This document shows positions 3,794 through 40,586 of a stretch of 64,000 nt of DNA, one piece after another. Source of the DNA: Trypanosoma brucei (Eukaryota); NCBI GenBank assembly GCA_000002445.1, contig CP000069.1, positions 1,216,001 through 1,280,000 of the forward strand. Reading direction: 5' to 3'. Position numbers and translations under genes: made by a program. Below the pieces are notes generated by a model that saw nothing but the letters and a program-made list of their open reading frames with translations, was not told where the DNA came from and ran no database searches. Each line of letters starts with the position of its first letter. The stretch's first letter is position 1.

Positions 3794-3897
3794 TCAACGT
3801 GCAGTCAGAGACTTCATACAGACATATATGCGTGGACGCGTTTGTAAACTTGTACCGTCGCGGTACCTCACGAACATTCTGCTATCAACGGGTGACA

Positions 3898-4713: not shown

Positions 4714-7149
<2,436 letters not shown>

Positions 7150-7572
7150 CCGGTAGTCCCTTCATGAGGTGACTGCTAACATTGCATCGAGTGCTAATAC
7201 ATTTTTCCGTACATGGTTCATGGGGTGAGTGATTCATCATGTCTATATACTAAAACTGTATGTATATTATAGATATATATATACATATATTGGAATGTAG
7301 TGTAATAGAGAAGTTTGTTTGAGTTTGTTTTTGATAAGTTTTTTTTCCTGTCTTTGTCGCGCAAAGATGTTTAGTGTTATTAGTAATGGGAATAATTCTC
7401 ATTCATTTTGTCTTTTTATGTCACCACGTGGTGTTTAACACCCACATTTTAAATATACCGAACCTCTTTCAAAATGGAGATGCTAGAGTAAACATTCGTA
7501 TGAGAGTTCATATTTCCCATTGCACAATCTTTAAACAAGCATGCATAGTTGTCTACTGCCTTCTTCAGGTGT

Positions 7573-21973: not shown

Positions 21974-22418
21974 AGCAGCAGCAAAATTGTATATTCCCTA
22001 CAAGCACAGTAACTACAAAAATAAAGCAAAACTCAAGCTACACCACTACCTTACCGAGCAGCGTATAAACGTTTACGGGCTAACTTCTTATACGTTTCCC
22101 AAACAACTAACAGTTCACCACCAATAAAAAAAAGAAAAGTTACAGTAAACAAACTTTCCTAGGAACAGTTACGTATATACCAATTGTTCTATATATAGGA
22201 GTCTATTTCTTAACACCTCAAGCTTCAAAAAAAAAAAGTACAAAAAGAAAAGGAAGATACCAACAAAAAAAAAAAGCAATCTCAACATAATACTTTGAAA
22301 AAAAAAACACTCCAGAGATTAAATACACAAACTTTACACCTTTGAAGAGTGAACGGGGGAAAAGAAAAGAAAAGAGGGATGGACAACAACCTCGCTACGT
22401 TCAATGAAGTCAAGAAGC

Positions 22419-24230
22419 CTAACCTGTAGAACCGCTTGTTGATACTCCCTTCAAGTCGTCACAGGGAATGTCCCATTTCCTAAACGATGCTATGCACAAC
22501 GAAAGACAACGAGGGTCAACAGGGGACTGTGTTGCGCGAAGCACCGCAACAAGTTGCCGTACACTCCCAATGTCGACAACGAGACAAAGCATCTTGAAAA
22601 GACGAACAGATAATCTGCTTTCGATAGAAACGCTTCTCTGCCTGTGGTACTCAACCAACATCATCGCGGTTGAAACATCCTGAGCATCAACTGCCAACTC
22701 AAGGCCACCACGAAGAAATTCCGCTGTCACTTCAACACCCAAATCTACCATGTCCTCCAGAAATGTTGGTATCTTCTTCACAGCACTTACAGCATTGGGG
22801 GAGGTTGACAGTAGTAAAGTAAACGTGCGTGCTGTCTCTCGCACAGCAACGTTTCGGAAAGTAAATAAGACCAGTGATGCCTTCTGTTCGTCTTTCATTA
22901 ATGCACACGCTTCAAGCACAACATTAAGTGTTTTATGACTCACATTCCCACCCGCAGCTTTGCGCTCCTCCAACAACAACAACGACTCCTCAACCCTGGA
23001 GTCCACTTCCGCAATAAAACGCACAAGCGACATAACTGGATGTGCGTTAAGTAAAGTCAACCGCCTCGTCTCTAAGAAGAGTTTGGGTCTCGAACCTGGG
23101 ATGGAGTCAGATTCCGGAATCTCATCCTCTAATAAATACAACGCCTCCTTCAGTAACCCGGCCCGCACTAACGTCTCCAGGTGAAGGAGCGCCAGTGCAA
23201 ACTTGTGCTGAGGAGGAATAATGCATGGATGAGCGCGAAGATACTTCAATACGTAATCAGCAGAAGCCACATCGCCCCATTTGGCACATTTCGCCATAAG
23301 TTTCAATGCAGTAACATCATTATTCAGCACAGGTCCACCCTTTGCTTCCTGAAGGATCGAAGAACTTTCCTCAAAGGCATTGACACCGATATCGGCGCTG
23401 GCTTCGGCAACCTCCTGCTCGGAAGCGCCTTCCGCTGCTGCAATCAACTGGACAGCAATTGAGGGTGGTGACGCCACATTATTTGTGCTGAGCAACATAT
23501 AGGGAAGAAGCAAGCGGGGAGACATTTTCTCACGGTCCGCAAGCCGCAGTAACTCAAAACATTCCTGAACCATAGTGACGTCGTGGTGGACACGGAGGAG
23601 AGTTTGAAAGCAATGTTGAAGGCGTATTGACAATAAGGGAAACTTTTGCTGCCAGTTCTTCCCCGATGTGATGATGCTCTTAGTATCCTCATGAATGGAA
23701 GGCCACCAGGAGGAATAGTCCTCTCCGAGTCGCGTGTATACGATGAAGAGAGAAATCTTCGTTACTACATCAGGTTCAGCACCTTTCATACGCATTGCCT
23801 CTATGGCGTTTTCAACCTCATACTGATTGAAGGTATCACTAAGGGAAATGGCCAACAGGTATACGTTAAACAGTTCCACAGATGGGGAAGAAAGTTCCAA
23901 CATGCACTGAGCAAATAAAAAGCGCAGTTCCTCAAGCTTATGAAGATCGCAAAGTATCTTCATCATGACAACCGCAAAAGGTTCTGTATCATCAAAAGAA
24001 CCACAAAAACTCTGGAGCGGCTTCATATCCACCGTTGCTATGGAAGTGCCGGAGGTAACTTGTCGGTAATATGTACGAAACTCTTCAAAAACATGCCATG
24101 CGGCTGGTGGGCCCTCTCCATCCGACTGCAGCATCCTCAGAACTCGAATGTACGGATTGTCACCTGTGGAAAAAGTCAAAGAAGCACAGCTGGAAGCAGT
24201 CTTCCTAAGCACATTGAGGCGCCGAATCAT
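22419..24230 (-). CDS. helical-repeat protein, PPR/TPR-like (603 aa), copy A
   Basis: Long ORF on the unit strand with a repeated ~35-residue amphipathic helical-pair pattern rich in L/A/E, which suggests a PPR-like organellar RNA-binding protein. The protein is identical to the copy at 32296..34107. Confidence 0.6.
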   Translation of the reverse strand: MIRRLNVLRKTASSCASLTFSTGDNPYIRVLRMLQSDGEGPPAAWHVFEEFRTYYRQVTSGTSIATVDMKPLQSFCGSFDDTEPFAVVMMKILCDLHKLEELRFLFAQCMLELSSPSVELFNVYLLAISLSDTFNQYEVENAIEAMRMKGAEPDVVTKISLFIVYTRLGEDYSSWWPSIHEDTKSIITSGKNWQQKFPLLSIRLQHCFQTLLRVHHDVTMVQECFELLRLADREKMSPRLLLPYMLLSTNNVASPPSIAVQLIAAAEGASEQEVAEASADIGVNAFEESSSILQEAKGGPVLNNDVTALKLMAKCAKWGDVASADYVLKYLRAHPCIIPPQHKFALALLHLETLVRAGLLKEALYLLEDEIPESDSIPGSRPKLFLETRRLTLLNAHPVMSLVRFIAEVDSRVEESLLLLEERKAAGGNVSHKTLNVVLEACALMKDEQKASLVLFTFRNVAVRETARTFTLLLSTSPNAVSAVKKIPTFLEDMVDLGVEVTAEFLRGGLELAVDAQDVSTAMMLVEYHRQRSVSIESRLSVRLFKMLCLVVDIGSVRQLVAVLRATQSPVDPRCLSLCIASFRKWDIPCDDLKGVSTSGSTG

Positions 24231-24696
24231 TGGTATCAGCTCCCCTGCACTCTCACATCCTTACGTGCCGTGGGATATAACATTATTATTATGGGACCAA
24301 AAGAAGGCAGTTAACCGTCAACCATCGGAAAATACAAAAAGTATAGATGAAAAGGTGTGTTAAAACGAGAAAGATGAAATGGGATAGGGTCTCTAAATAA
24401 AATAAGAGAAGTAAGATGAAGAAGATAACCAGAAACAGAACCACTCCAACGCCAAACACGGATGCAACAACGCTAAACACAAGAGAAAGGAAGGGGAATC
24501 GTGTCGCCACTTTAACAACCTTCCAACGTGCGGGATATAATAAACTTAATTATCATGATATTAATTTGTTAACTTAAACCGACTGATAGCAGCTAGATGG
24601 CGAATGAAAAAGACATTAGCAGGGGGAAAATCTGCCTGCGCATATAAAGACTACTTCGAAGACAAGAAACCAACCAAAAGCACAGGGCTGCTCCGT

Positions 24697-25809
24697 TCAT
24701 TCCTTCGCTCCAGAAGCTGCGGAAGTCCCTACAGTGCCAACCGCACGTTTTACATAGTTTACCTTCAGAACCCAGTGACCCGGTGTATACTCGTTCACTG
24801 TACGGTGATGCGCTTCATAGTTCGGATAATACTCGGGTTCCACACCAATCGTTCCCCCACTATGGTAAGACTTCCCCACAGCACTATCAGGGTCAATAAA
24901 TACAATCACAGAAAACCGTTCAGGGTCGAACACTCTCAATACTCCACAGATACACTTCGAGTAATTAAGAGCACACGTATTCGTCTCATATGATGCAAAC
25001 GAACAGTGCTCCTCAGGTGTTATGTGTATCGTTTGATACTCGCTACCACGTATCGCATTTATGCTGTAGCCACATGGCTCATACTGAAGGTCGTGAAGGA
25101 TCCATGAATCATCTACAACTTCACTGAGCCCCGTTGCCTCCCGTATCACTGCGGTTTCAGGACCCGTAGGCAACATCTTATCCGAGTACCAGTGTTTCGT
25201 TTGATTGCGATCAAGCCCATACATGGTCATGCTGAGTTGTGCATCGTCACTGCAGCTGGGTTGAACAACATCACTGTGGAAATACAAGAAGTAGTGGTCG
25301 CTGTCAATCGGACCAAATATGAATGGTTGTCCCGACGGAAAATGGGACCTAAGTGTCTTAAATTCTTCCGCCATCGAAAGATGCGGTCCCTTCTGCTCCC
25401 ACGGGAAACTGTAGTTTTTGTGCATGAAGGAAACCCATTCTACTTCGCCGCAAACAGTACTCACCGCCTCGCATATGAGCGGCACGCAATTCAAAAGAGT
25501 GATGGTACCACAAGTTATGAGAATCACGCGATCTTTCATTACAAACAATGAGCTCTCCGATAACACGTAGGAGCGAATGTATTCATTAAACTCACGGGAA
25601 ACAATGTGTGCACATATAGCATCAATAACTTTTTGCCACACATCGTCATCGTGTGCAAGTAAACCACTAACGTGCGTCCCGTCCACCACCCGCATTATCA
25701 CCTCCAAGCGCTTCTCAGGCCCTTCGAAGCTTCGCTCGTGCTTTGGGTCAAAACGAGCGATGGAACCCCACATCGCCATGAGCGAAAGAGAGTCCTTGCA
25801 AGAGGACAT
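24697..25809 (-). CDS. AdoMetDC: S-adenosylmethionine decarboxylase proenzyme (370 aa), copy A
   Basis: Proenzyme signature FEGPEKRLEV and the autoprocessing site YVLSESSLFV (the Ser that becomes pyruvoyl) are both present. The length matches trypanosomatid AdoMetDC. Confidence 0.92.
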   Translation of the reverse strand: MSSCKDSLSLMAMWGSIARFDPKHERSFEGPEKRLEVIMRVVDGTHVSGLLAHDDDVWQKVIDAICAHIVSREFNEYIRSYVLSESSLFVMKDRVILITCGTITLLNCVPLICEAVSTVCGEVEWVSFMHKNYSFPWEQKGPHLSMAEEFKTLRSHFPSGQPFIFGPIDSDHYFLYFHSDVVQPSCSDDAQLSMTMYGLDRNQTKHWYSDKMLPTGPETAVIREATGLSEVVDDSWILHDLQYEPCGYSINAIRGSEYQTIHITPEEHCSFASYETNTCALNYSKCICGVLRVFDPERFSVIVFIDPDSAVGKSYHSGGTIGVEPEYYPNYEAHHRTVNEYTPGHWVLKVNYVKRAVGTVGTSAASGAKE

Positions 25810-27220
25810 GACTAGTACTTCAGTCAGTGTGCGGTCAAATATAGCACCTTACGGATTAAATAACCAAACCAGACACGCACACACGCAGGCCCACAAAGGA
25901 ATGGTGCGCTTCCTAAGAGTGCAAGCTCAACAAACAATGTACTTTTTGTGCTCGAGGATACGCGTACAAACTCCACAGAAAAAGGTCAAAAATCCGAAAC
26001 GAGGGAAATAAAATATGAATAAGATAGAATAGGGAGAAGAGAAAAGAAAGAGAAGGGAAAGGGCAGGTATTAGTGGTGCCTACATCACAAGTGCGAGTCG
26101 ACAAAAAGGCATTTATGGAAACTTGACACACGGAGGTTGTGAAGCTCAACCAAAAATGAAGCCAAGAGAATTAATCTCTTTTGCGTCTTCCTTTAACCCT
26201 TTTGAGTTAGACTTCGCCACACAGGAGAAACCCCAGGTGATACTAATTTGGGGAGGAACGTATACATATACACATATATATTGATATGTGTAGGTATGTA
26301 TACAAATATGTCTTCCTCTCCCGTCACCTCAGCTGATTATTATCCTTCACTCTCCCTTCTTTTCTCCTCTTCTATCCCTTTCAAATAGAATCAGAATGTT
26401 GGCGTTGAAACAACATGCAGAAATGTGGAAAGATGGAAGAAACAAATGACCCATAGTCATGGGCTCCCGCCATACGCAAATACCTGGAAAGTGGGTAAGA
26501 TAAACTGAGAACATATGAAAAACAAACCGACAAAGGCAAAGGCAAAGGCGTGAGCAACTTGTTCGCTTGGAGAAATAAAATATGGCAACAACAGCAACAT
26601 CACAAAACTGAGAGGAGCAGAAACATGCTGGTAGTTCCTCACATTATCATGCGCTCTCAACGAAAGAAAAAAGGATAAATAAACGAACATGTGACCTCCC
26701 ACCTTATTGACCACAAAAGTGTAAACTTCAAAATCATGTATGGAGGTCACATTTACTCTCAATCAGTTACCGTAAATCACACGCAAGTAAAAGTAACCTC
26801 AAATCCTCATTCTCATATGTCTCAATCACCCCTCACATCACCATCAGTCTCTGGTTTCCAGACTCGTATGTTACGCATATCTATCCTTAAAACACACAGA
26901 CTCAGGTACATGTATTTGGCAGCGTCACCCCTCCGATATTGTATCACCTTCTCCCTTCCGATCGGCATCATTTCTCTTCTTCTAAAACGTTACTTGATTC
27001 TTTTCCTTCCAGTGCTATACCTCATAACACATGTTAATGCAGCATTTCTCCAAGCGCGTACGAGGAGATACAGTGGCTTACTTACTCTTGTAGTCAAGAA
27101 ATGTCCCACACTTAGTCACTATTATATGCTCAAGGTTGTTTGTAAACAAACGAAAATCGAGGAATGTGTGAATCGCACACGTTTTGCGCTCACATAAAGC
27201 AACAAAACACACCGCGTTCT

Positions 27221-28279
27221 TCAGTCCGCCTGCCCAGAAGCCACGCGTGTTGTACCCCCTGTCTCGTCAGTATCAACACTATCACACTCTCCAAAAACTG
27301 TGTTACTGCTCATGCTTATATGAGCATTAGTCCGTCGCTCCCTTCTGCTGACCGTGCGACGAGTGGGAAGTACATCAAATGCCGTACTCCAGTCACCACA
27401 CTCAGTATACCGGCACAACACATCCACAACGTGATTTACAGTCAGCACCTTGCAGATGTTACCCACCTTAATGGACTCGTCAATTGGTAACCGTGCCATA
27501 CGCACACCGTACCGTATTGCGGCATCCCTTGTCAGAAACTTCCTTGCGTTATGGTCGACAAAGGCTCCAACAATGTACACCGTCCCCTGTTCAATCCGCT
27601 CAAGCACAACTTCCGCATCCGCCGTCAGAAAAACTACGCGCTGAAGGTCATAGAGACTCGACCAGTGGTTCTCATGCACGGGTAAAGGGTAACGTGAAAA
27701 CCCGTTAAAGGTGCAAAGGGACTGCAAGACATCGCTATGTGCGCACGCCATCTCCCCATCGGCACTGCCACCAATAGAAGTGATGACGGGGCGCAAGGGG
27801 AAGGCATGACGACGCAAGGCACTGTAACTGAGCTTCACCTGCGACACAGTGCTGCGACAGTCACTAGCATTCATGCACCACGCGAAACTTAAGTCAAAAA
27901 CTAGAACCGGTAGCTTGGCGTCAGCAAGGTGCTCCTGGCACAGCTGCTGCAAACGCATCTCCGCGCCACGCCTTTTTTCGTGTACCGCAATCGCCTCTGC
28001 CCGACGTCGCTCACGCTCACTCTGGCTCAGCGCCTCCCATTCCTTTTGTTGCATCTCCCGCCGTTCCGCTGCCGCTGCTTTTTTCCGTTGCCGCTGCTTT
28101 TCCTTCTTCTCCCGCCAATACGCCGCCTGCTCCTCAGCGGTCCACACTCGTCCCCGCTTGCGCCTTTCGTGCTGCTCTATATGTGTATCGAGTTCGCATG
28201 GCACAGTAATGGAGGGCTCTTCTTCCCTGACGTTTGTTGATGTTATCCGGCCCGCTGCCGTTGTCCGTTCATCATCCAT
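27221..28279 (-). CDS. tRNA (guanine/adenine-9-N1)-methyltransferase TRM10-like (SPOUT family) with basic/coiled N-terminal extension
   Basis: The C-terminal region VVFLTADAEVVLERIEQGTVYIVGAFVDHN...RMARLPIDE fits the TRM10 SPOUT core (YLT.DS...L.......YIIGGLVDH). The N-terminus is K/R/E-rich, as in Trm10 tRNA-binding extensions. Confidence 0.6.
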   Translation of the reverse strand: MDDERTTAAGRITSTNVREEEPSITVPCELDTHIEQHERRKRGRVWTAEEQAAYWREKKEKQRQRKKAAAAERREMQQKEWEALSQSERERRRAEAIAVHEKRRGAEMRLQQLCQEHLADAKLPVLVFDLSFAWCMNASDCRSTVSQVKLSYSALRRHAFPLRPVITSIGGSADGEMACAHSDVLQSLCTFNGFSRYPLPVHENHWSSLYDLQRVVFLTADAEVVLERIEQGTVYIVGAFVDHNARKFLTRDAAIRYGVRMARLPIDESIKVGNICKVLTVNHVVDVLCRYTECGDWSTAFDVLPTRRTVSRRERRTNAHISMSSNTVFGECDSVDTDETGGTTRVASGQAD

Positions 28280-28621
28280 GATATGGAAATGCTAGAACTT
28301 TGTGCGAACAAAGTTTATCGTTTGCGAACCATGCACAAACGTATACGTTGAGACAAAATGTGTCCCCTTACATAAACACTGCCATGAGCAAAGAGGTGAA
28401 TGTATACGGGAAAAAAGAGCGTTTAGACACAAAATTGTAAAGAAAAAATACATGAGTGACGAACGAACTGTGTATGTTAGTCAACATATTTGTACGCAAT
28501 TCCTGACTGCAACAAAAGTAAAACATAAGAAACGATGCTTCCTGCGGCCACATAAACAGCGGCAGAAAATACGAAACGTAGATGGGTGCAAAGCCCACAA
28601 ACCAAAGGACAAAAGAAATAA

Positions 28622-29629
28622 CTAAGTCGATACATAAACAAGATTATGCCGAACGGGTTTAGCACCCACGACGTGCACACCCTGATCCGAAGGCTGCGTG
28701 ATCACCACCCGACCTTCCACACCCACCGCACACGCAGCATCAATCATGGCCAATGCGACGCGCTCCGCGACCCGCTCTTCCTTAGGCTGAGTCAGAACCT
28801 CCCCATGCCGACCACCAACGAGAGCGCACACAGTTGGCCCCGCACCAGAAAGAAACGCATAAGCGGCACCGGCTTCCTTTGCGGCATTCACACAGGGACG
28901 AAAGTGTGGAAAGAGAGCATCACCACGTTGTCCCTCATGTATCTTATCACCACACGACCGCAAAGTTCGAAGGTCACCCGTGCTTAGTGCAAGAACAAGG
29001 ATAGAGGCGCAGGAAATATTATACACAGCGTCCTCCAGGGGCACAAAATCGGGAATGAGTCCGCGTGTAACGTGCGTGTTTTCCTTCATCTTTTCACGTG
29101 GAATGAAGAGCACGACAGAGAGGGCGAATGGAGTGGGGACACGAGTGGTAAGCACGCGGCCTCCGTGTTCCTTGTAGCAGAGCTGAATTCCACCGTACAG
29201 CGCTGGAGCCGCGTTGTCAGGATGCCCTTCGAACTTCGCAATGGCCTGAAGCAATTCCTCCTCGCTCCCCGTCGCCATTGTGTGGCCGCAGAGTTGCAAC
29301 CCCGCGACAAACCCAGCAACAGCGGCAGCCGAAGAGGAACCACAACCACAACCATATGGAATATCGCTCCTCATGATGAACCTGAGAGTGGGCATTTTCT
29401 TGTTGCCGTACTCAAAGGCAAGGCAGCAAGCCCTCACAACCATGTTTTGCTCGTCTCGTTGGATTTCTTCACAACCCTCCCCCTCGACACTCATGGAGAA
29501 CGCATCTGAATGTTCCACCGTAAGCTCAGCGAAAATTGATAGTGCCATGCCAATTGAATCGTAAGCAGGACCCATGTTGGCTGTCGTCGCAGGGACACGT
29601 ACAACAACCTTCCTTGGAAGGACACACAT
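28622..29629 (-). CDS. thrB: homoserine kinase (GHMP kinase family)
   Basis: The N-terminal VRVPATTANMGPAYD matches the homoserine-kinase hallmark VPATSANLGPGFD. The GHMP ATP-binding loop PYGCGCGSSSAAAVAG is present. Confidence 0.85.
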   Translation of the reverse strand: MCVLPRKVVVRVPATTANMGPAYDSIGMALSIFAELTVEHSDAFSMSVEGEGCEEIQRDEQNMVVRACCLAFEYGNKKMPTLRFIMRSDIPYGCGCGSSSAAAVAGFVAGLQLCGHTMATGSEEELLQAIAKFEGHPDNAAPALYGGIQLCYKEHGGRVLTTRVPTPFALSVVLFIPREKMKENTHVTRGLIPDFVPLEDAVYNISCASILVLALSTGDLRTLRSCGDKIHEGQRGDALFPHFRPCVNAAKEAGAAYAFLSGAGPTVCALVGGRHGEVLTQPKEERVAERVALAMIDAACAVGVEGRVVITQPSDQGVHVVGAKPVRHNLVYVST

Positions 29630-31038
29630 CCGCTAAAATCACCCAGTTAGCGTGCTCAGTGCTAGTGTTATCACTGCTGCAACTGTACTAAGTGAGGTGC
29701 GGCCTACAAACTGAAACTTTCGATGCCCACCTCCAGACAGCCCCTCTCACTCCTTTTTTCTTCGGTTTGATTGCACCGGTCCCAACGGCAAGATGCTCCG
29801 CAGGAACTCCAAGCTTTTCCGCCCGACAGAAGAACAATGGTAAGTGCTAATTAGCTGTTACTCGTACCGCCTCCTTTTCTTTACTGATAAAAATAAACGA
29901 AGGAGAAATAGGACAAAGCGAAAACAGAAAAGAGAAACATTATGGCTCCTAAGACACGAAGCGCTCTACTTGGCACTGCACCTCAAGAGTCCTTCTTCCC
30001 AAAGAAAAACAAAATCAACATTGCGTTTTGCTTTCGACGAAAGAGGATAGTCGTCCGCCCACTGATCTCAATCCACCAGCGATGTTTTCTCTCGCACCCT
30101 CTTTGTTATTTTTCCTTTTTCTTTGCTTTGGTTAGTCTCCTTTGTTACTTAAATAACGGGCTGGAAAGGGCGTGATACCACGAGGGGACATGTGTTAAAA
30201 ATTGAGAGCTAAGTAGCCCATTCATGCATCGTTTCCTCAAGGTATTTCATCCCCACTCTCACAATGGTGCCTTTCTTTTTTCACCTGCACTCTACAGTTT
30301 CCCGTGGCAGATGATACATAACTTATGCACAAAGGAGCCTCCACTCACTCTTTTTTCTTTCGCCTTTCAACTTCACACAACGTGCCGATTGGAAGAAAGG
30401 GAGGAACACGAAGGGAAAACACGCCATATCAACCTTTACTCAGTGGGAGAACCACGCGTCTGCTTTCCGCGCTCTAGTGACTCAATCTAAAGCATACATG
30501 GCCCTTCCCTCCTTGCCGCCGATTAATTCCTCAACATTTTTATTGCTGCTCCCACTGGTTGTACACCTACGCGAGGCTATGTTCCCCCATTCCCCTCCCT
30601 TTCTGCGGCTTGATGACTTACACAGGAAACACGAGTGAAATTTAAAAAGGTGGAAAAAATAAGTTGGAGGAGACAATGGCCCACCCCTTGATATCACCTC
30701 TTCCCCCCTGGTTATAGTTTATACTCGAAAACAAAAATAATAATAATAAAAAACGAAATCGAAAATTGAGCAAAGGGGGAAGGTTTCCAGAAAAAGGAAT
30801 AAAAGAAAAAAACAAAAACGTTGCCGGTTACTCTTTCTTTCATTCTGATTTCTCTTCTTCATCCACTCCCGCCTTCCACTCCTCCATCTTTCGCCACTTC
30901 GTATGCACCCTTCCCCTCCATAACCATCTCTGACCCTGCCTTTCCCCTACCGAAGCTGTGAACACCAGGCAATCGACCGAAGCGTCAGACAAACGACACT
31001 CACCCAAAGGGTTCAAACATCCAAGTTCATTGAAGGGT

Positions 31039-32097
31039 TCAGCTGCGCTGCTTCTGACGGAAAACGTTAACGGTCGTTTGACTAGCACCGACAACAAACG
31101 GGGCCGCTTTGATGGAGTCCATCACGCTGTCTTCACCGGGCGAAAAGTCGAAGAACACGTACCCCTTGGCGGAGTTGTTACGGAGCGACACAATGCGTGC
31201 AGCAAGAGGGCCGAGTGCGGTGAGAATTTCCTCATCGGTGACTGCGTGATCGATACTGAACATCAGCCGTTCCCCAACGGGCTCCGAAGGAGCACGCGGA
31301 GCCTTTGCGGCACGCTTTGGGGAAACTTGCTTCCGCGAGTCGGACTGAGGGGCCTGCTTCGTGGGGGGTGAAGCGGGCTTGGGAGCCACCTTGTTTGCAG
31401 TACTCTCATTGGCAACCACCTTGATGGAGGGCCTCTGTTCCCCCTTTGTCGCGATGCTCGCGAGGCTGGCCCATGTCTTGGGTCCCGTTGGTGCGTCCAC
31501 AGCTGCCTCCGTCACCGCCGGAGCGGCGGTTGAAGGAGAAACACGGCCTTTTCCATCAGGTTTCTTATTTGGGGCACGCCGACTGTCCTCCTTCTTCTCC
31601 TCAACAGGGGTTCCAGTTGTCTCTGGCTCCGGCAGCGGTTCCTCCTCCTCTACCTTACCCTCAGGCTCATTCTTTCCCTCTGCGCAGCTCGGCTCCTTCT
31701 CCACAGCACCAGTCCGGGTGACGATCTGATTGCGAATGTAGAAGGACGATGGTCCATAGTCTCCGGCGGGGTACTCCTCCAGGTTAGTCACAAACTGGAA
31801 GAAGTGACGGACGGAAGCTGATTCCGCAACCAGCGTCAAGTGGATACATACACCGCTGTGAAACGGTAAGACGGAGACGTCCCCTACCGTCAGTTGGCAG
31901 TTTTGGATTATGTTTGCCCACTGCACGAGAGCAGGAGCAATGTCCGCACCGTATACCTTCTTTGTTCCACACTCAAAGTCTACGAGCATAAGTGCTGACT
32001 CTGAACCATACATACCCGCAAGATTTTCAGGAGCCGTAGCAAGCTCCTCGAAAAATGCAGGTGCAAACTTGTACGCTACCTCAGTTGGCGTTGGCAT
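31039..32097 (-). CDS. NTF2-domain + RRM RNA-binding protein (G3BP-like architecture)
   Basis: The N-terminal ~120 aa are NTF2-like (FAPAFFEEL...YGPSSFYIRNQIV). A low-complexity P/A/K/E linker follows. The C-terminal RRM carries an RNP motif KGYVFFDF. Confidence 0.65.
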   Translation of the reverse strand: MPTPTEVAYKFAPAFFEELATAPENLAGMYGSESALMLVDFECGTKKVYGADIAPALVQWANIIQNCQLTVGDVSVLPFHSGVCIHLTLVAESASVRHFFQFVTNLEEYPAGDYGPSSFYIRNQIVTRTGAVEKEPSCAEGKNEPEGKVEEEEPLPEPETTGTPVEEKKEDSRRAPNKKPDGKGRVSPSTAAPAVTEAAVDAPTGPKTWASLASIATKGEQRPSIKVVANESTANKVAPKPASPPTKQAPQSDSRKQVSPKRAAKAPRAPSEPVGERLMFSIDHAVTDEEILTALGPLAARIVSLRNNSAKGYVFFDFSPGEDSVMDSIKAAPFVVGASQTTVNVFRQKQRS

Positions 32098-32295
32098 AGC
32101 GAAAAAGCTTTCACTAGATAATGTAACTAAAACCTACCTTCCACAACACATGTAAAGAAAAAAAATTAAAAAAAATAAAAATAGCACTCCAGAGATTAAA
32201 TACACAAACTTTACACCTTTGAAAAGTGAACGGGGGAAAAGAAAAGAAAAGAGGGATGGACAACAACCTCGCTACGTTCAATGAAGTCAAGAAGC

Positions 32296-34107
32296 CTAAC
32301 CTGTAGAACCGCTTGTTGATACTCCCTTCAAGTCGTCACAGGGAATGTCCCATTTCCTAAACGATGCTATGCACAACGAAAGACAACGAGGGTCAACAGG
32401 GGACTGTGTTGCGCGAAGCACCGCAACAAGTTGCCGTACACTCCCAATGTCGACAACGAGACAAAGCATCTTGAAAAGACGAACAGATAATCTGCTTTCG
32501 ATAGAAACGCTTCTCTGCCTGTGGTACTCAACCAACATCATCGCGGTTGAAACATCCTGAGCATCAACTGCCAACTCAAGGCCACCACGAAGAAATTCCG
32601 CTGTCACTTCAACACCCAAATCTACCATGTCCTCCAGAAATGTTGGTATCTTCTTCACAGCGCTTACAGCATTGGGGGAGGTTGACAGTAGTAAAGTAAA
32701 CGTGCGTGCTGTCTCTCGCACAGCAACGTTTCGGAAAGTAAATAAGACCAGTGATGCCTTCTGTTCGTCTTTCATTAATGCACACGCTTCAAGCACAACA
32801 TTAAGTGTTTTATGACTCACATTCCCACCCGCAGCTTTGCGCTCCTCCAACAACAACAACGACTCCTCAACCCTGGAGTCCACTTCCGCAATAAAACGCA
32901 CAAGCGACATAACTGGATGTGCGTTAAGTAAAGTCAACCGCCTCGTCTCTAAGAAGAGTTTGGGTCTCGAACCTGGGATGGAGTCAGATTCCGGAATCTC
33001 ATCCTCTAATAAATACAACGCCTCCTTCAGTAACCCGGCCCGCACTAACGTCTCCAGGTGAAGGAGCGCCAGTGCAAACTTGTGCTGAGGAGGAATAATG
33101 CATGGATGAGCGCGAAGATACTTCAATACGTAATCAGCAGAAGCCACATCGCCCCATTTGGCACATTTCGCCATAAGTTTCAATGCAGTAACATCATTAT
33201 TCAGCACAGGTCCACCCTTTGCTTCCTGAAGGATCGAAGAACTTTCCTCAAAGGCATTGACACCGATATCGGCGCTGGCTTCGGCAACCTCCTGCTCGGA
33301 AGCGCCTTCCGCTGCTGCAATCAACTGGACAGCAATTGAGGGTGGTGACGCCACATTATTTGTGCTGAGCAACATATAGGGAAGAAGCAAGCGGGGAGAC
33401 ATTTTCTCACGGTCCGCAAGCCGCAGTAACTCAAAACATTCCTGAACCATAGTGACGTCGTGGTGGACACGGAGGAGAGTTTGAAAGCAATGTTGAAGGC
33501 GTATTGACAATAAGGGAAACTTTTGCTGCCAGTTCTTCCCCGATGTGATGATGCTCTTAGTATCCTCATGAATGGAAGGCCACCAGGAGGAATAGTCCTC
33601 TCCGAGTCGCGTGTATACGATGAAGAGAGAAATCTTCGTTACTACATCAGGTTCAGCACCTTTCATACGCATTGCCTCTATGGCGTTTTCAACCTCATAC
33701 TGATTGAAGGTATCACTAAGGGAAATGGCCAACAGGTATACGTTAAACAGTTCCACAGATGGGGAAGAAAGTTCCAACATGCACTGAGCAAATAAAAAGC
33801 GCAGTTCCTCAAGCTTATGAAGATCGCAAAGTATCTTCATCATGACAACCGCAAAAGGTTCTGTATCATCAAAAGAACCACAAAAACTCTGGAGCGGCTT
33901 CATATCCACCGTTGCTATGGAAGTGCCGGAGGTAACTTGTCGGTAATATGTACGAAACTCTTCAAAAACATGCCATGCGGCTGGTGGGCCCTCTCCATCC
34001 GACTGCAGCATCCTCAGAACTCGAATGTACGGATTGTCACCTGTGGAAAAAGTCAAAGAAGCACAGCTGGAAGCAGTCTTCCTAAGCACATTGAGGCGCC
34101 GAATCAT
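32296..34107 (-). CDS. helical-repeat protein, PPR/TPR-like (603 aa), copy B
   Basis: Protein identical to 22419..24230. Confidence 0.6.
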   Translation of the reverse strand: MIRRLNVLRKTASSCASLTFSTGDNPYIRVLRMLQSDGEGPPAAWHVFEEFRTYYRQVTSGTSIATVDMKPLQSFCGSFDDTEPFAVVMMKILCDLHKLEELRFLFAQCMLELSSPSVELFNVYLLAISLSDTFNQYEVENAIEAMRMKGAEPDVVTKISLFIVYTRLGEDYSSWWPSIHEDTKSIITSGKNWQQKFPLLSIRLQHCFQTLLRVHHDVTMVQECFELLRLADREKMSPRLLLPYMLLSTNNVASPPSIAVQLIAAAEGASEQEVAEASADIGVNAFEESSSILQEAKGGPVLNNDVTALKLMAKCAKWGDVASADYVLKYLRAHPCIIPPQHKFALALLHLETLVRAGLLKEALYLLEDEIPESDSIPGSRPKLFLETRRLTLLNAHPVMSLVRFIAEVDSRVEESLLLLEERKAAGGNVSHKTLNVVLEACALMKDEQKASLVLFTFRNVAVRETARTFTLLLSTSPNAVSAVKKIPTFLEDMVDLGVEVTAEFLRGGLELAVDAQDVSTAMMLVEYHRQRSVSIESRLSVRLFKMLCLVVDIGSVRQLVAVLRATQSPVDPRCLSLCIASFRKWDIPCDDLKGVSTSGSTG

Positions 34108-34573
34108 TGGTATCAGCTCCCCTGCACTCTCACATCCTTACGTGCCGTGGGATATAACATTATTATTATGGGACCAAAAGAAGGCAGTTAACCGTCAACC
34201 ATCGGAAAATACAAAAAGTATAGATGAAAAGGTGTGTTAAAACGAGAAAGATGAAATGGGATAGGGTCTCTAAATAAAATAAGAGAAGTAAGATGAAGAA
34301 GATAACCAGAAACAGAACCACTCCAACGCCAAACACGGATGCAACAACGCTAAACACAAGAGAAAGGAAGGGGAATCGTGTCGCCACTTTAACAACCTTC
34401 CAACGTGCGGGATATAATAAACTTAATTATCATGATATTAATTTGTTAACTTAAACCGACTGATAGCAGCTAGATGGCGAATGAAAAAGACATTAGCAGG
34501 GGGAAAATCTGCCTGCGCATATAAAGACTACTTCGAAGACAAGAAACCAACCAAAAGCACAGGGCTGCTCCGT

Positions 34574-35686
34574 TCATTCCTTCGCTCCAGAAGCTGCGGA
34601 AGTCCCTACAGTGCCAACCGCACGTTTTACATAGTTTACCTTCAGAACCCAGTGACCCGGTGTATACTCGTTCACTGTACGGTGATGCGCTTCATAGTTC
34701 GGATAATACTCGGGTTCCACACCAATCGTTCCCCCACTATGGTAAGACTTCCCCACAGCACTATCAGGGTCAATAAATACAATCACAGAAAACCGTTCAG
34801 GGTCGAACACTCTCAATACTCCACAGATACACTTCGAGTAATTAAGAGCACACGTATTCGTCTCATATGATGCAAACGAACAGTGCTCCTCAGGTGTTAT
34901 GTGTATCGTTTGATACTCGCTACCACGTATCGCATTTATGCTGTAGCCACATGGCTCATACTGAAGGTCGTGAAGGATCCATGAATCATCTACAACTTCA
35001 CTGAGCCCCGTTGCCTCCCGTATCACTGCGGTTTCAGGACCCGTAGGCAACATCTTATCCGAGTACCAGTGTTTCGTTTGATTGCGATCAAGCCCATACA
35101 TGGTCATGCTGAGTTGTGCATCGTCACTGCAGCTGGGTTGAACAACATCACTGTGGAAATACAAGAAGTAGTGGTCGCTGTCAATCGGACCAAATATGAA
35201 TGGTTGTCCCGACGGAAAATGGGACCTAAGTGTCTTAAATTCTTCCGCCATCGAAAGATGCGGTCCCTTCTGCTCCCACGGGAAACTGTAGTTTTTGTGC
35301 ATGAAGGAAACCCATTCTACTTCGCCGCAAACAGTACTCACCGCCTCGCATATGAGCGGCACGCAATTCAAAAGAGTGATGGTACCACAAGTTATGAGAA
35401 TCACGCGATCTTTCATTACAAACAATGAGCTCTCCGATAACACGTAGGAGCGAATGTATTCATTAAACTCACGGGAAACAATGTGTGCACATATAGCATC
35501 AATAACTTTTTGCCACACATCGTCATCGTGTGCAAGTAAACCACTAACGTGCGTCCCGTCCACCACCCGCATTATCACCTCCAAGCGCTTCTCAGGCCCT
35601 TCGAAGCTTCGCTCGTGCTTTGGGTCAAAACGAGCGATGGAACCCCACATCGCCATGAGCGAAAGAGAGTCCTTGCAAGAGGACAT
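34574..35686 (-). CDS. AdoMetDC: S-adenosylmethionine decarboxylase proenzyme (370 aa), copy B
   Basis: Protein identical to copy A. Confidence 0.92.
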   Translation of the reverse strand: MSSCKDSLSLMAMWGSIARFDPKHERSFEGPEKRLEVIMRVVDGTHVSGLLAHDDDVWQKVIDAICAHIVSREFNEYIRSYVLSESSLFVMKDRVILITCGTITLLNCVPLICEAVSTVCGEVEWVSFMHKNYSFPWEQKGPHLSMAEEFKTLRSHFPSGQPFIFGPIDSDHYFLYFHSDVVQPSCSDDAQLSMTMYGLDRNQTKHWYSDKMLPTGPETAVIREATGLSEVVDDSWILHDLQYEPCGYSINAIRGSEYQTIHITPEEHCSFASYETNTCALNYSKCICGVLRVFDPERFSVIVFIDPDSAVGKSYHSGGTIGVEPEYYPNYEAHHRTVNEYTPGHWVLKVNYVKRAVGTVGTSAASGAKE

Positions 35687-37954
35687 GACTAGTACTTCAG
35701 TCAGTGTGCGGTCAAATATAGCACCTTACGGATTAAATAACCAAACCAGACACGCACACACGCAGGCCCACAAAGGAATGGTGCGCTTCCTAAGAGTGCA
35801 AGCTCAACAAACAATGTACTTTTTGTGCTCGAGGATACGCGTACAAACTCCACAGAAAAAGGTCAAAAATCCGAAACGAGGGAAATAAAATATGAATAAG
35901 ATAGAATAGGGAGAAGAGAAAAGAAAGAGAAGGGAAAGGGCAGGTATTAGTGGTGCCTACATCACAAGTGCGAGTCGACAAAAAGGCATTTATGGAAACT
36001 TGACACACGGAGGTTGTGAAGCTCAACCAAAAATGAAGCCAAGAGAATTAATCTCTTTTGCGTCTTCCTTTAACCCTTTTGAGTTAGACTTCGCCACACA
36101 GGAGAAACCCCAGGTGATACTAATTTGGGGAGGAACGTATACATATACACATATATATTGATATGTGTAGGTATGTATACAAATATGTCTTCCTCTCCCG
36201 TCACCTCAGCTGATTATTATCCTTCACTCTCCCTTCTTTTCTCCTCTTCTATCCCTTTCAAATAGAATCAGAATGTTGGCGTTGAAACAACATGCAGAAA
36301 TGTGGAAAGATGGAAGAAACAAATGACCCATAGTCATGGGCTCCCGCCATACGCAAATACCTGGAAAGTGGGTAAGATAAACTGAGAACATATGAAAAAC
36401 AAACCGACAAAGGCAAAGGCAAAGGCGTGAGCAACTTGTTCGCTTGGAGAAATAAAATATGGCAACAACAGCAACATCACAAAACTGAGAGGAGCAGAAA
36501 CATGCTGGTAGTTCCTCACATTATCATGCGCTCTCAACGAAAGAAAAAAGGATAAATAAACGAACATGTGACCTCCCACCTTATTGACCACAAAAGTGTA
36601 AACTTCAAAATCATGTATGGAGGTCACATTTACTCTCAATCAGTTACCGTAAATCACACGCAAGTAAAAGTAACCTCAAATGCTCATTCTCATATGTCTC
36701 AATCACCCCTCACATCACCATCAGTCTCTGGTTTCCAGACTCGTATGTTACGCATATCTATCCTTAAAACACACAGACTCAGGTACATGTATTTGGCAGC
36801 GTCACCCCTCCGATATTGTATCACCTTCTCCCTTCCGATCGGCATCATTTCTCTTCTTCTAAAACGTTACTTGATTCTTTTCCTTCCAGTGCTATACCTC
36901 ATAACACATGTTAATGCACCATTTCTCCAGCCACACACGAAAGCAGAGGGAGAAAGTCGTAGATATTTTGTTACTATTATTCGATAATTCATCAACTCTA
37001 CACTTCATTTCATTCTTTTTCTTTCATATTACTCTTGATCCTCTTCCTTATACCTGCTTGAAGGTCTAATCACCTCTTTCGCTTCTGTTGTTTCAACTTC
37101 TTTTGACTTGTGCTTGTGTCGGTCTGTTGCGTTTCTCTTTATCCGTCACCTCGCTTCCTGTCGGATGACATAACTTCGGCTACTTCCTTTCAATACCACC
37201 GCTGCTTGGTATATAACCATATGATCTTCCGCCCCCAGTGATGGTAAGGAAAGGAAGTAGAAGTGAACAAGAAGGGCGAGGGGCAGGAAAAGCAATACGT
37301 AACGGCGACAAATGGTTCTTTCTTTTTTTTTCTTTTTGATAAATAAGTTTGCATGCAACAAAAACCCCGCTGCTGAAAGTCTGTTAAGGCTTTCGCTCAG
37401 TAACGTAAATTAGAGGCTCTATCCACCTTTCAAATCGCAAATACAAACGTACGGACGCGCGCGTATTCGTTTTCAAGCTCCCACCCACAAATACTCACAT
37501 CTTTGTTTCCGTTACTGTTCCGTCATTCCTGTGCCGTTGTCCATCGAATAGTTTTAAACCAGCTGTACAGTTGGACAAAAAAAGAAAAGGAAAATAGGCA
37601 TTATCAAGAGGTGCTGGTGGTGGGAACCATGAAAGCGAAACAAGGTTGGAAAAAATAGTGAAATGATACGGGGAGGAAAAAAGAAAGAACGAAAATGAAG
37701 GGGATGAGACACCACTAATTTGAACGAAGGTAAGCCACTTCACGTAACAAGCTGCTTCTCGATTTGGTTTTCTTTCCCAGCTGTTCATTAGCCTGTTCTC
37801 TTTTAATGCCTGATAGGAACTGCCGCCGCCGTCCATCTACTATCCTCAATAGCGGGTAACCACACAACTTTTTCACCCCTCCCTGCCCGCGCACCCACAA
37901 GACACATACACCATTACGGCAGCTCTTTATTATTATTACTATTAATATTACGTT

Positions 37955-39608: not shown

Positions 39609-40586
39609 TCAGGCACTGCGTGCGTATGTGGCCTGGTGGAAGACATAGCCTCCACCAAAGTGATTAGCACCGCGGTGCACGACGGTGAAACCTTCCAATC
39701 TATCCATAACGCCGCACGCAGTTGTGCCCTGTGCGTCCCGGTCCTGCAGCAGCACGAGCAGAACTCTCTCCGGGTAAAATTTTTTGAGAAGTCCATTCAC
39801 AATTTTTGTGATATCACTCGCGGCAGACACGGCATTCGTTTCGAAGGAGGCAAAGGGATGCGTGGACCCATATGTTGACACTCGCAACGTTTCGTACTCC
39901 CCCGCGCAGTGGGATACAAGAAGTTGCTGTTCTTTGGTGTTTCCGTCCAAGTCATACTCATCATCTGCTTGTACGTTGTACATGTAAACATTGATCTGCA
40001 CATCATTTTCCCTTCGACAACTGGACGGGTCGCGATCGATGCCATCGTACACAAAGTAAAAACAGTGATCACGGTCAACAGGACCAGCTAGGTACGGGTG
40101 GCCCGTTGGGAACGCGGACTTCAACTCGGCGTATTCATGAGCCATAATATCACTCGTTTCCGATGTCATGTCCCAAGGCGAGCCGTAGTTGACCCGCATG
40201 AAAGACGCCCAATCCACAATAATGTTGTGGGAGCGCATGAGCTCAAGCATCGGGTGTACCGCTTCGTGTAGCATCACTGAAACGGAAGAGCGCACAACAA
40301 TCTGCTTTGCCGTAAACACCAAGAGGGACCTGTCGAACTTAAGCGTATGAATTCCCAGCTCAGCGGAGTTCTGACGAAGTGACTCACCGGCACGCTCCAT
40401 CACGGATGCCAGCTGTTTTACCGTAACGGTTCCTATATCAACAGGCTGTGCGAAATTGAGTTCAAACCGCTTCTCCAGGCCGCTGTCCGTGGAGGTTTTA
40501 GATTGGGTGCAACCTCCCCAACATGACACAAGGTCATGCACCGAACTTGGGCACTCGGTTTGCTGGTTAATCCGCGTGACCGACAT
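39609..40586 (-). CDS. AdoMetDC prozyme (catalytically dead AdoMetDC paralogue, 325 aa)
   Basis: Recognisable AdoMetDC fold homology: GLEKRFELNF versus FEGPEKRLEV, FPTGHPYLAGPVDRDHCFYF versus FPSGQPFIFGPIDSDHYFLYF, and HCAGEYETLRVSTYGS versus EPCGYSINAIRGSEYQT. The proenzyme cleavage motif LSESS is replaced by FDRSLLVF, so there is no serine to form pyruvoyl. Start set at MSVTRINQ (ATG 40584-40586), 15 codons inside the track ORF. Confidence 0.85.
   Translation of the reverse strand: MSVTRINQQTECPSSVHDLVSCWGGCTQSKTSTDSGLEKRFELNFAQPVDIGTVTVKQLASVMERAGESLRQNSAELGIHTLKFDRSLLVFTAKQIVVRSSVSVMLHEAVHPMLELMRSHNIIVDWASFMRVNYGSPWDMTSETSDIMAHEYAELKSAFPTGHPYLAGPVDRDHCFYFVYDGIDRDPSSCRRENDVQINVYMYNVQADDEYDLDGNTKEQQLLVSHCAGEYETLRVSTYGSTHPFASFETNAVSAASDITKIVNGLLKKFYPERVLLVLLQDRDAQGTTACGVMDRLEGFTVVHRGANHFGGGYVFHQATYARSA

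What the first reader, a model, noticed from the sequence alone, without database searches (positions are those of the whole stretch)
22308..36929. Two near-identical 4.75-kb copies of an AdoMetDC + PPR-like gene cassette, separated by 5.1 kb of unique sequence carrying three unrelated genes
Positions 22308..27052 and 32185..36929 are identical except for at least one SNP (26806 c / 36683 g), at a constant offset of 9877 bp. Each copy carries the 370-aa AdoMetDC, a 603-aa helical-repeat gene and about 1.2 kb of AdoMetDC 5' flank. In the direction of transcription, the duplicated unit ends only ~110 bp after the PPR-like stop codon. The two PPR-like mRNAs would therefore have different distal 3' UTRs, and the two AdoMetDC copies different upstream contexts (TRM10 3' flank versus prozyme 3' flank). 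That gives identical proteins potentially distinct post-transcriptional control. The near-100% identity over 4.7 kb implies very recent duplication or ongoing gene conversion. The intervening TRM10-like, homoserine-kinase and G3BP-like genes are not duplicated.
Basis: seen in the sequence. Interest (0 to 1): 0.6.

Follow-up and report, generated by a model that had tools for sequence, protein, structure and literature searches.

The report
Known duplicated AdoMetDC block in T. brucei
The two near-identical 4.75-kb blocks are real, but they are the already published duplicated AdoMetDC locus on chromosome 6 of the sleeping-sickness parasite Trypanosoma brucei: a lineage-specific second copy, apparently kept uniform by gene conversion, that most likely doubles gene dose rather than creating differently regulated genes.

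Summary
Window 22308-27052 and 32185-36929 match at a constant offset of 9877 bp, with four substitutions rather than one. Both protein pairs are identical.

Exact protein look-ups place the window on Trypanosoma brucei TREU927 chromosome 6 (Tb927.6.4400/4410 and Tb927.6.4450/4460). The structure is already in the literature. Jones et al. 2015 describe two ~4.8-kb repeats flanking 5.1 kb and a one-allele deletion by crossover between them. Patel et al. 2018 knocked out all four amd alleles.

New here:
- Seven other trypanosomatids have a single AdoMetDC-PPR pair next to prozyme, and six of them show TRM10 directly followed by the kinesin gene. Copy B is therefore ancestral and copy A is derived.
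- 18 substitutions separate strains yet are shared by both copies within a strain, and none is copy-specific across strains. This indicates concerted evolution.
- The duplicated "5' flank" is 953 nt of the mapped non-coding transcript Tb6.NT.72 plus the predicted AdoMetDC splice signal.

The two AdoMetDC mRNAs are therefore predicted to be identical. The PPR copy-B 3'UTR can hold at most ~47 unique nt. The mRNA most likely altered by the duplication is TRM10's. The differential-regulation idea is mostly unsupported. Verdict: real, ordinary, already known.

The parts
22308..27052 (-). Copy A of the 4745-bp unit. This is the derived copy, inserted between TRM10 and the kinesin gene. It extends with gaps to 22298.
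   Evidence: Constant-offset comparison and self-BLAST. Six outgroup species have TRM10 directly followed by kinesin.
32185..36929 (-). Copy B of the unit. It sits at the ancestral position, downstream of prozyme and upstream of RBP42. It extends with gaps to 32172.
   Evidence: The order prozyme-AdoMetDC-PPR-RBP42 is seen in T. theileri, T. cruzi, T. vivax, T. grayi, T. melophagium and T. conorhini; the L. major locus shows AdoMetDC-PPR-RBP42 but does not reach prozyme.
24697..25809 (-). AdoMetDC copy A (Tb927.6.4410), 370 aa.
   Evidence: Pfam SAM_decarbox E = 4e-94. Exact match to AAZ11999.1/AAZ12004.1, in the same 90% cluster as PDB 5TVO chain A.
34574..35686 (-). AdoMetDC copy B (Tb927.6.4460), 370 aa, identical protein.
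22419..24230 (-). PPR-like 603-aa gene, copy A (Tb927.6.4400).
   Evidence: Exact match to AAZ11998.1. Pfam PPR_3 scores below its cut-off. Weak matches to designer PPR proteins, E = 1e-5. Orthologues occur across kinetoplastids.
32296..34107 (-). PPR-like 603-aa gene, copy B (Tb927.6.4450). The protein is identical; the DNA has one synonymous difference.
27221..28279 (-). TRM10-type tRNA m1G9 methyltransferase (Tb927.6.4420), single copy. Its stop codon lies 168 nt upstream of the copy-A boundary, so its 3'UTR is predicted to run about 950 nt into the repeat.
   Evidence: Pfam, exact look-up. No polypyrimidine tract of 22 nt or more lies between 27220 and 26063. The 3'UTR extent is an inference.
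28622..29629 (-). Homoserine kinase (Tb927.6.4430), single copy.
   Evidence: Poly(A) site mapped at window 28502 by Kolev 2010.
31039..32097 (-). RBP42 (Tb927.6.4440), the G3BP orthologue, essential, single copy.
   Evidence: Poly(A) site mapped at window 30023.
35976..37225 (-). Tb6.NT.72, a trans-spliced polyadenylated transcript with no ORF longer than 77 aa. Its first 296 nt are unique; its last 953 nt are the upstream part of copy B.
   Evidence: Kolev et al. 2010 Table S7, chr6 1253225-1251976. The coordinate offset of 1,216,000 was verified on three genes. ORF scan.
26099..27052 (-). Copy-A counterpart of the Tb6.NT.72 body, predicted to form the distal TRM10 3'UTR.
   Evidence: Inference. 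TRM10 has no uniquely mapped poly(A) site in Kolev Table S13, although its neighbours do.
35907..35940 (-). 34-nt polypyrimidine tract with the first AG at 35848, the predicted AdoMetDC trans-splice signal. The copy-A twin is at 26030-26063 with AG at 25971.
   Evidence: The same rule (first AG after the tract) reproduces the mapped 5' end of Tb6.NT.72 exactly.
39609..40586 (-). Prozyme (Tb927.6.4470), 325 aa. Its long 3'UTR ends at 37338, outside the repeat.
   Evidence: Pfam SAM_decarbox. Kolev Table S3 coordinates.

Best explanation
This is the known AdoMetDC array of Trypanosoma brucei chromosome 6. The ancestral trypanosomatid gene order is ValRS, prozyme, AdoMetDC, PPR-like, RBP42, homoserine kinase, TRM10, kinesin. 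In the lineage leading to T. brucei, after the split from T. vivax, a 4.75-kb segment was copied into the TRM10-kinesin intergenic region. That segment holds the 3' three-quarters of the non-coding transcript Tb6.NT.72, AdoMetDC, the PPR-like gene and 111 nt of its 3' flank. The result is direct repeats 9877 bp apart.

The route is inferred. Either it was a two-junction insertion, or it was a tandem duplication of the 9.9-kb unit followed by loss of the second RBP42-HSK-TRM10 block between T-rich tracts.

Since then the two copies have been homogenised by gene conversion or unequal exchange, so they evolve in concert and encode identical proteins. Because trypanosomes do not control transcription gene by gene, the most likely effect is dosage (inferred): twice the AdoMetDC mRNA, and as a passenger twice the PPR-like mRNA, from mRNAs that are predicted to be identical. 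This fits AdoMetDC being in excess over its limiting activator prozyme and acting as a repressor of prozyme translation.

The repeats also make the 5.1-kb segment between them prone to deletion by crossover, which has been observed experimentally.
For: - Identity of the locus: exact protein matches to T. brucei TREU927 AAZ11998-AAZ12004; coordinates match Kolev 2010 chr6 with an offset of 1,216,000.
- Already described: Jones 2015 report two ~4.8-kb repeats flanking 5.1 kb and loss of one allele by homologous crossover. Patel 2018 report two identical amd genes and four alleles knocked out. Steketee 2021 call it the 'AdoMetDC array'.
- Real in other strains: a gap-free de novo IVM-t1 contig has both copies 9891 bp apart. 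The OVI orphan contig equals window 32216-27048 and contains the derived TRM10-flank/unit junction.
- Polarity: single-copy ancestral order in T. theileri, T. cruzi, T. vivax, L. major, T. grayi, T. melophagium and T. conorhini.
- Concerted evolution: at 18 substitution sites and one 3-bp indel both TREU927 copies share one state and both IVM-t1 copies share the other. No site is copy-specific across strains. There are 4 and 6 within-genome differences against 20-27 between strain groups. At 15 of the 18 sites the collapsed OVI and DAL972 consensus sequences fall into the same two groups.
- Identical AdoMetDC mRNAs: the predicted splice signal and the 3' intergenic region lie inside the repeat and carry no differences. 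The processing rules come from Clayton 2019.
- Dosage rationale: prozyme is limiting relative to AdoMetDC (abstract of Willert & Phillips 2008), and AdoMetDC represses prozyme translation.
Against: - The dosage benefit is inferred; no expression data for the separate copies exist, and none can exist for AdoMetDC because its two mRNAs carry no differences.
- The interior identity could be inflated by assembly. Sanger shotgun consensus (TREU927) and Pilon polishing (IVM-t1) can pool reads from both copies. The four TREU927 differences all lie within about one Sanger read length of unique sequence, as that artefact would also predict.
- T. congolense could not be examined, so the age of the duplication is bounded only by T. 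vivax.
- The DAL972 assembly shows a single copy and lacks the three intervening genes. I read this as repeat collapse because RBP42 is essential, but did not verify it with reads.
Confidence: 0.85

Rival explanations
1. One reading: the duplication gives identical proteins distinct post-transcriptional control, through different upstream context for AdoMetDC and different distal 3'UTRs for the PPR-like gene.
For: The flanks beyond the unit do differ. The copy-A PPR gene is followed by 445 nt with several candidate splice signals for the kinesin gene (first AG at 22340, 22293, 22223, 22107 or 22013). Its poly(A) site could therefore lie beyond the repeat.
Against: The AdoMetDC splice signal, 5'UTR, coding sequence and 3' intergenic region are all inside the repeat with no differences. 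Poly(A) sites are set about 100 nt upstream of the next active polypyrimidine tract. For copy-B PPR this places the site inside the 111 duplicated nt, and the RBP42 splice acceptor caps any unique tail at about 47 nt. Kolev 2010 list Tb927.6.4400 and Tb927.6.4450 together under a single abundance value.
Confidence: 0.1
2. A very young duplication with no gene conversion: the copies are alike simply because there has been no time to diverge.
For: Only 4 differences in 4745 bp. The duplication is absent from T. vivax and more distant species.
Against: The same junctions are present in TREU927, IVM-t1 and OVI, and the structure is present in Lister 427. Yet orthologous copies differ between strain groups at 20-27 sites, about five times the within-genome difference. 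For an expectation of at least 20 differences, the Poisson probability of seeing 4 or fewer is 2e-5.
Confidence: 0.07
3. Assembly artefact: one copy was falsely placed twice in the reference.
For: Two other assemblies (DAL972, OVI main contig) show a single copy.
Against: Those assemblies lack three genes, one of them essential. In OVI the missing 5.1 kb sits on an orphan contig whose ends run into the repeat on both sides, which is the signature of collapse. A gap-free IVM-t1 contig has both copies. Read depth and a one-allele deletion between the repeats were seen in Lister 427. Four sequential allele knockouts were needed for an amd null line.
Confidence: 0.02

Closest known systems
T. brucei AdoMetDC array, Tb927.6.4400/4410 and Tb927.6.4450/4460 (Jones et al. 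2015 PMC4689576; Patel et al. 2018 PMC6221367)
   Same: It is this locus: two ~4.8-kb near-identical regions flanking a 5.1-kb segment with TRM10, HSK and RBP42, and two identical amd genes.
   Different: Nothing structural. The passages of those papers that I read do not state which copy is ancestral, the concerted-evolution pattern, or that the boundary cuts the transcript Tb6.NT.72.
T. brucei chromosome 10 fibrillarin repeats (Tb927.10.14620/14630 and 14740/14750; Jones et al. 2015)
   Same: Same architecture: direct repeats of about 3.1 kb at ~99% identity flank 12.9 kb of unique genes, and the intervening segment was lost on one allele by homologous crossover in the same clone.
   Different: Different genes and sizes. 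It lies outside this window and was not examined here.
Head-to-tail tandem gene arrays of trypanosomatids, such as the glycosomal GAPDH pair in this window and the 9-copy AdoMetSyn array
   Same: Near-identical direct copies within one polycistronic unit, commonly read as a way to raise mRNA dose where transcription is not controlled per gene. GAPDH pair: 2115-4549 and 4717-7151, 3 mismatches. AdoMetSyn array.
   Different: Here the copies are not adjacent. Three unrelated single-copy genes lie between them, so the locus is 1.5 units of a 9.9-kb period, not a simple tandem array.
Repeat-mediated amplification and deletion in Leishmania (from my own knowledge: Ubeda et al. 2014, PLoS Biol; not checked here)
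   Same: Direct repeats flanking unique genes allow copy-number change of the enclosed segment by homologous recombination.
   Different: In Leishmania the repeats are mostly short non-coding families and give extrachromosomal amplicons. Here the repeats are gene-bearing and only a deletion has been reported.

Membership tests
Real segmental direct duplication (as opposed to an assembly artefact) | Two copies in the same orientation, with far more identity than chance allows. | tested here: met
   4745 bp with 4 mismatches at a constant offset.
Real segmental direct duplication (as opposed to an assembly artefact) | The derived junction is present in independent assemblies or strains. | tested here: met
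   Gap-free IVM-t1 contig. The OVI orphan contig contains the TRM10-flank/unit junction. Lister 427 read depth and knockouts are in the literature.
Lineage-specific (derived) duplication | Outgroups have a single copy, and the insertion site is unoccupied. | tested here: met
   Seven species show a single AdoMetDC-PPR pair, and six loci show TRM10 directly followed by kinesin. T. congolense was not testable.
Paralogues under concerted evolution (gene conversion) | Paralogues within a genome are more alike than orthologues between genomes that share the duplication, with no copy-specific fixed differences. | tested here: met
   18 strain-fixed sites, 0 copy-fixed sites; 4-6 differences within genomes against 20-27 between strain groups. 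Caveat: the assembly consensus may pool reads from both copies.
Paralogues under concerted evolution (gene conversion) | Read-level phasing of each copy. | not testable with these tools
   No read data are available here.
S-adenosylmethionine decarboxylase (Pfam PF01536), active TbAdoMetDC | Full-length match to the family and identity to the characterised enzyme. | tested here: met
   E = 4e-94 over profile positions 2-342 of 343. Exact match to AAZ11999.1/AAZ12004.1, in the same cluster as PDB 5TVO_A.
Pentatricopeptide repeat (PPR) protein | PPR repeats detected above the curated threshold. | tested here: inconclusive
   Pfam PPR_3 scores 17 bits against a cut-off of 25. Weak matches to designer PPR chains, E = 1e-5, in two stretches. 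Precomputed PF23276 hits on some orthologues, some of them faint.
Simple head-to-tail tandem gene array | Copies are adjacent, with nothing but their own intergenic spacer between them. | tested here: not met
   5132 bp carrying three unrelated single-copy genes separate the copies.
Paralogues sub-functionalised by different UTRs | The mature mRNAs of the two copies differ in UTR sequence. | tested here: inconclusive
   AdoMetDC: predicted identical, because all processing signals lie inside the repeat. PPR: at most ~47 unique nt are possible in copy B; copy A is unknown. No copy-resolved end mapping was found.

The most novel reading that the evidence does not exclude
The duplication may have rewired a neighbouring gene rather than the duplicated genes. 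By dropping 953 nt of the non-coding transcript Tb6.NT.72 (which lies between prozyme and AdoMetDC) 168 nt downstream of the TRM10 stop codon, it would have given the SAM-dependent tRNA methyltransferase TRM10 a new 3'UTR of about 1.1 kb. That could place TRM10 under whatever stability or translation control acts on this sequence in the AdoMet/polyamine locus. That the TRM10 3'UTR runs into the repeat is likely. That this has any regulatory consequence is speculative. The conserved prozyme 3'UTR blocks all lie outside the duplicated part.
Probability: 0.12. Interest if true: 0.4.

Novelty: already known. Interest (0 to 1): 0.15.

Why it matters
Practically, it matters to anyone manipulating or quantifying these genes. 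AdoMetDC is a validated drug target with four alleles. Short reads cannot be assigned to a copy. The repeats promote deletion of an essential gene, RBP42. At least two published assemblies have collapsed the locus and lost three genes.

Biologically it is an ordinary example of dose increase by duplication in an organism without gene-level transcriptional control, with a clean signature of concerted evolution. It does not open a new question.

Tried and rejected
- Assembly artefact: rejected.
- Young duplication without gene conversion: rejected on strain comparisons.
- Idea that the duplicated 1.2-kb flank carries the conserved prozyme 3'UTR regulatory sequence: rejected. All blocks conserved across Trypanosoma lie at 39284-37736, outside the repeat, and nothing in the duplicated flank is conserved.
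- Structured or known RNA in the unit: Rfam finds nothing in the whole window at gathering thresholds.
- Microhomology at the junctions: the unit begins TGGAG and ends TGGAGTG, and its downstream end abuts T-rich tracts in both copies. A 5-nt match is too weak to argue a mechanism, so I do not rely on it.
- Copy-resolved splice and poly(A) site data: Siegel 2010 has no held supplements, Nilsson 2010 has no entries, and the Kolev 2010 tables are truncated or omit the duplicated genes.
- Xiao et al. 2013, which as I recall mapped the prozyme 3'UTRs, is not held.
- T. congolense context: no contig on record.
- L. major: no match to the conserved prozyme 3'UTR blocks in the part of the locus available.
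Full report
**1. Observation**

Self-BLAST reports 99.85% identity over 4758 columns. It extends with gaps to 22298/32172 through a T-rich tract. It finds only one other repeat in the 64 kb, at 2115-4549 and 4717-7151.

All long ORFs in the region lie on the minus strand. This is the pattern of a trypanosomatid polycistronic unit read from right to left.

**2. What the genes are and where the window comes from**

Pfam identifies the following:
- the 370-aa ORFs as S-adenosylmethionine decarboxylase (E = 4e-94);
- 39609-40631 as a divergent member of the same family, which is prozyme;
- 41255-44182 as valyl-tRNA synthetase;
- 27221-28279 as a TRM10-type tRNA methyltransferase;
- 28622-29629 as a GHMP kinase;
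- 18638-21973 as a kinesin.

Exact-sequence look-ups match T. brucei brucei TREU927 proteins AAZ11998 to AAZ12004. The AdoMetDC sequence is deposited twice (AAZ11999.1 and AAZ12004.1). The 352-aa 'G3BP-like' protein is named RBP42. The literature describes RBP42 as the G3BP orthologue and as essential.

Coordinates in Kolev et al. 2010 fit the window with an offset of 1,216,000 on chromosome 6, checked on prozyme, RBP42 and homoserine kinase.

The 603-aa protein is conserved across kinetoplastids but is only weakly PPR-like. Pfam PPR_3 scores below its cut-off. Matches to designer PPR proteins reach E = 1e-5.

The 22785 difference is synonymous, so both protein pairs are identical.

**3. It is already known**

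- Jones et al. [quoted passage not shown] In one drug-resistant Lister 427 clone the central region was lost from one allele, 'suggesting homologous crossover'.
- Patel et al. 2018 (PMC6221367) state that T. brucei has two identical amd genes, hence four alleles, and knocked out all four.
- Willert and Phillips 2008 list both gene IDs.
- Steketee et al. 2021 call the region the AdoMetDC array.

**4. It is not an assembly artefact**

The IVM-t1 genome is a de novo hybrid PacBio/MiSeq assembly. It carries both copies 9891 bp apart in sequence without gaps.

The T. b. gambiense DAL972 assembly and the T. equiperdum OVI main contig show a single unit. That unit is joined to the prozyme-side flank on one side and the kinesin-side flank on the other, and the three intervening genes are missing.

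In OVI those genes sit on an orphan 5169-bp contig that equals window 32216-27048. This is the unique segment plus 32 nt and 5 nt of repeat at its two ends, and it includes the derived junction. That is the signature of a collapsed repeat. For DAL972 I infer the same, because RBP42 is essential.

**5. Which copy is ancestral**

Around the orthologues of the PPR-like gene or of TRM10, the order is ValRS, prozyme, AdoMetDC, PPR-like, RBP42, homoserine kinase, TRM10, kinesin. There is one AdoMetDC-PPR pair, and TRM10 is followed directly by the kinesin gene. T. cruzi, T. theileri, T. grayi, T. melophagium and T. conorhini have an extra gene of about 670 aa between homoserine kinase and TRM10 (fragmented in T. 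melophagium). The species examined were:
- T. theileri, T. cruzi and L. major;
- T. vivax;
- T. grayi, T. melophagium and T. conorhini.

Copy B (32185-36929) therefore sits at the ancestral place. Copy A (22308-27052) was added between TRM10 and kinesin after the split from T. vivax. T. congolense could not be checked.

**6. Junctions and origin**

The unit starts TGGAGAAATG and ends CTCTGGAGTG. In both copies the downstream end runs into a T-rich polypyrimidine tract.

Two novel junctions exist. The origin was therefore one of two routes:
- an insertional copy, made by template switching; or
- a tandem duplication of the 9.9-kb unit, followed by loss of the second RBP42-HSK-TRM10 block between the two T-rich tracts.

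This is inference, and the sequence does not decide between the routes.

**7. Concerted evolution**

I aligned the two TREU927 copies, the two IVM-t1 copies and the collapsed DAL972 and OVI copies. The site patterns are:
- 18 substitution sites and one 3-bp indel where both TREU927 copies share one state and both IVM-t1 copies share the other;
- no site where copy A differs from copy B in the same way in both strains;
- 4 differences within TREU927 and 6 within IVM-t1;
- 20-27 differences between the (TREU927, OVI) group and the (IVM-t1, DAL972) group.

All these strains share the same junctions. Without exchange between the copies, the paralogues should therefore differ at least as much as the strains do. 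For an expectation of at least 20 differences, the Poisson probability of seeing 4 or fewer is 2e-5.

The caveat is that the assembly consensus can pool reads from both copies. The four TREU927 differences lie 39, 477, 247 and 10 nt from the unit's edges. Both gene conversion and read pooling would predict that clustering. Against pure pooling, at 15 of the 18 sites the four independently built assemblies fall into the same two groups. That would not be expected if each substitution were present in only one of the two copies.

**8. What the duplicated 'flank' is, and what this means for expression**

In trypanosomes the 5' end of an mRNA is set by a polypyrimidine tract and the first AG after it. 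The poly(A) site of the upstream gene lies about 100 nt before the active tract (Clayton 2019).

Kolev et al. 2010 mapped two features here:
- the long prozyme 3'UTR, which ends at window 37338;
- a separate transcript, Tb6.NT.72, at window 37225-35976 (1249 nt, 3.15 RNAs per cell).

My tract-plus-AG scan predicts the 5' end of Tb6.NT.72 exactly. It has no ORF longer than 77 aa.

The repeat boundary at 36929 cuts this transcript, so 953 of its 1249 nt are duplicated. The transcript ends 36 nt before a 34-nt polypyrimidine tract at 35940-35907, whose first AG is at 35848. This is the predicted AdoMetDC splice signal. Its twin lies at 26063-26030 with AG at 25971.

The consequences are as follows.
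- **AdoMetDC.** Its 5'UTR, coding sequence and 466-nt downstream intergenic region are entirely inside the repeat and carry none of the four differences. The two AdoMetDC mRNAs are predicted to be identical.
- **TRM10.** In copy A the Tb6.NT.72-derived 953 nt follow the TRM10 stop codon after 168 unique nt, with no strong splice signal in between. The TRM10 3'UTR is therefore predicted to be about 1.1 kb and mostly repeat-derived. Consistent with this, TRM10 has no uniquely mapped poly(A) site in the Kolev table, although its neighbours do.
- **PPR-like gene, copy B.** The RBP42 ATG lies 198 nt after the copy-B stop codon, and the candidate RBP42 acceptors are at 32217 and 32138. At most about 47 nt of a copy-B 3'UTR could be unique.
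- **PPR-like gene, copy A.** It is followed by 445 nt with several candidate acceptors and could have a longer 3'UTR.

No copy-resolved data were found.

**9. Most likely function**

Transcription is not regulated gene by gene in trypanosomes. A second identical copy most plausibly doubles the AdoMetDC mRNA supply, with the PPR-like gene as a passenger.

This fits two published observations. Prozyme is limiting relative to AdoMetDC (abstract). AdoMetDC protein represses prozyme translation.

The dosage reading is inference. The instability conferred by the repeats, shown by deletion of the intervening 5.1 kb, is published.

**10. Verdict**

The additions made here are small refinements and not a new kind of thing:
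- the polarity of the duplication;
- the concerted-evolution pattern;
- the cut through Tb6.NT.72;
- the predicted chimeric TRM10 3'UTR;
- the collapse of the locus in two public assemblies.

Noticed in passing
window 39284-39183, 39134-39093, 38816-38731 and 37948-37736 (minus strand): Non-coding blocks inside the long prozyme 3'UTR are conserved and collinear in T. vivax, T. cruzi, T. theileri, T. grayi, T. melophagium and T. conorhini. They include a nearly invariant core of about 60 nt (…TGTCATTTCNTGTGCCAGTT…CTCAACACCACTTTTG…) and motifs such as GGCAGCTCGAACTGGC. They are too invariant to show covariation, and Rfam has no match. They are candidates for the unexplained element that controls prozyme translation in response to dcAdoMet and AdoMetDC. 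All lie outside the duplicated unit.
   Followed up: partly
window 2115-4549 and 4717-7151: A second near-identical direct repeat (2435 bp, 3 mismatches, 2602-bp period). It carries glycosomal-type GAPDH ORFs (2552-3793 and 5154-6395) and most of a leucine-rich-repeat ORF. This matches, as I recall, the known GAPDH tandem pair of T. brucei.
   Followed up: partly
L003 (T. b. gambiense DAL972, FN554969.1), L004 and L015 (T. equiperdum OVI): Both public assemblies collapse the repeat. As a result TRM10, homoserine kinase and the essential RBP42 are missing from the chromosome sequence. In OVI they sit on an orphan 5169-bp contig; in DAL972 they are absent from the protein clusters altogether.
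   Followed up: partly
window 22347, 22785, 26805, 27042: All four differences between the copies lie within 477 nt of an edge of the unit, and the central 4019 bp are identical (P about 0.002 if placed uniformly). Either gene conversion is less efficient near the edges, or only reads anchored in unique flanks were resolved during assembly.
   Followed up: partly
L005 15954-17990, L006 16104-18095, L011 15305-17317, L013 15819-17735: T. theileri, T. cruzi, T. grayi and T. conorhini have a gene of about 640-680 aa with no Pfam hit between homoserine kinase and TRM10. T. brucei has only 343 bp there, and L. major has no called gene there.
   Followed up: no
window 39609-40631: The mechanical ORF list gives prozyme as 340 aa from a TTG. 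The published coding region is 978 nt (325 aa) from the ATG at 40586.
   Followed up: yes
window 35976-37225: Tb6.NT.72 is a trans-spliced, polyadenylated transcript with no ORF longer than 77 aa, lying between prozyme and AdoMetDC. Its published abundance (3.15 RNAs per cell) may include reads from the duplicated sequence downstream of TRM10, because 953 of its 1249 nt occur twice.
   Followed up: partly
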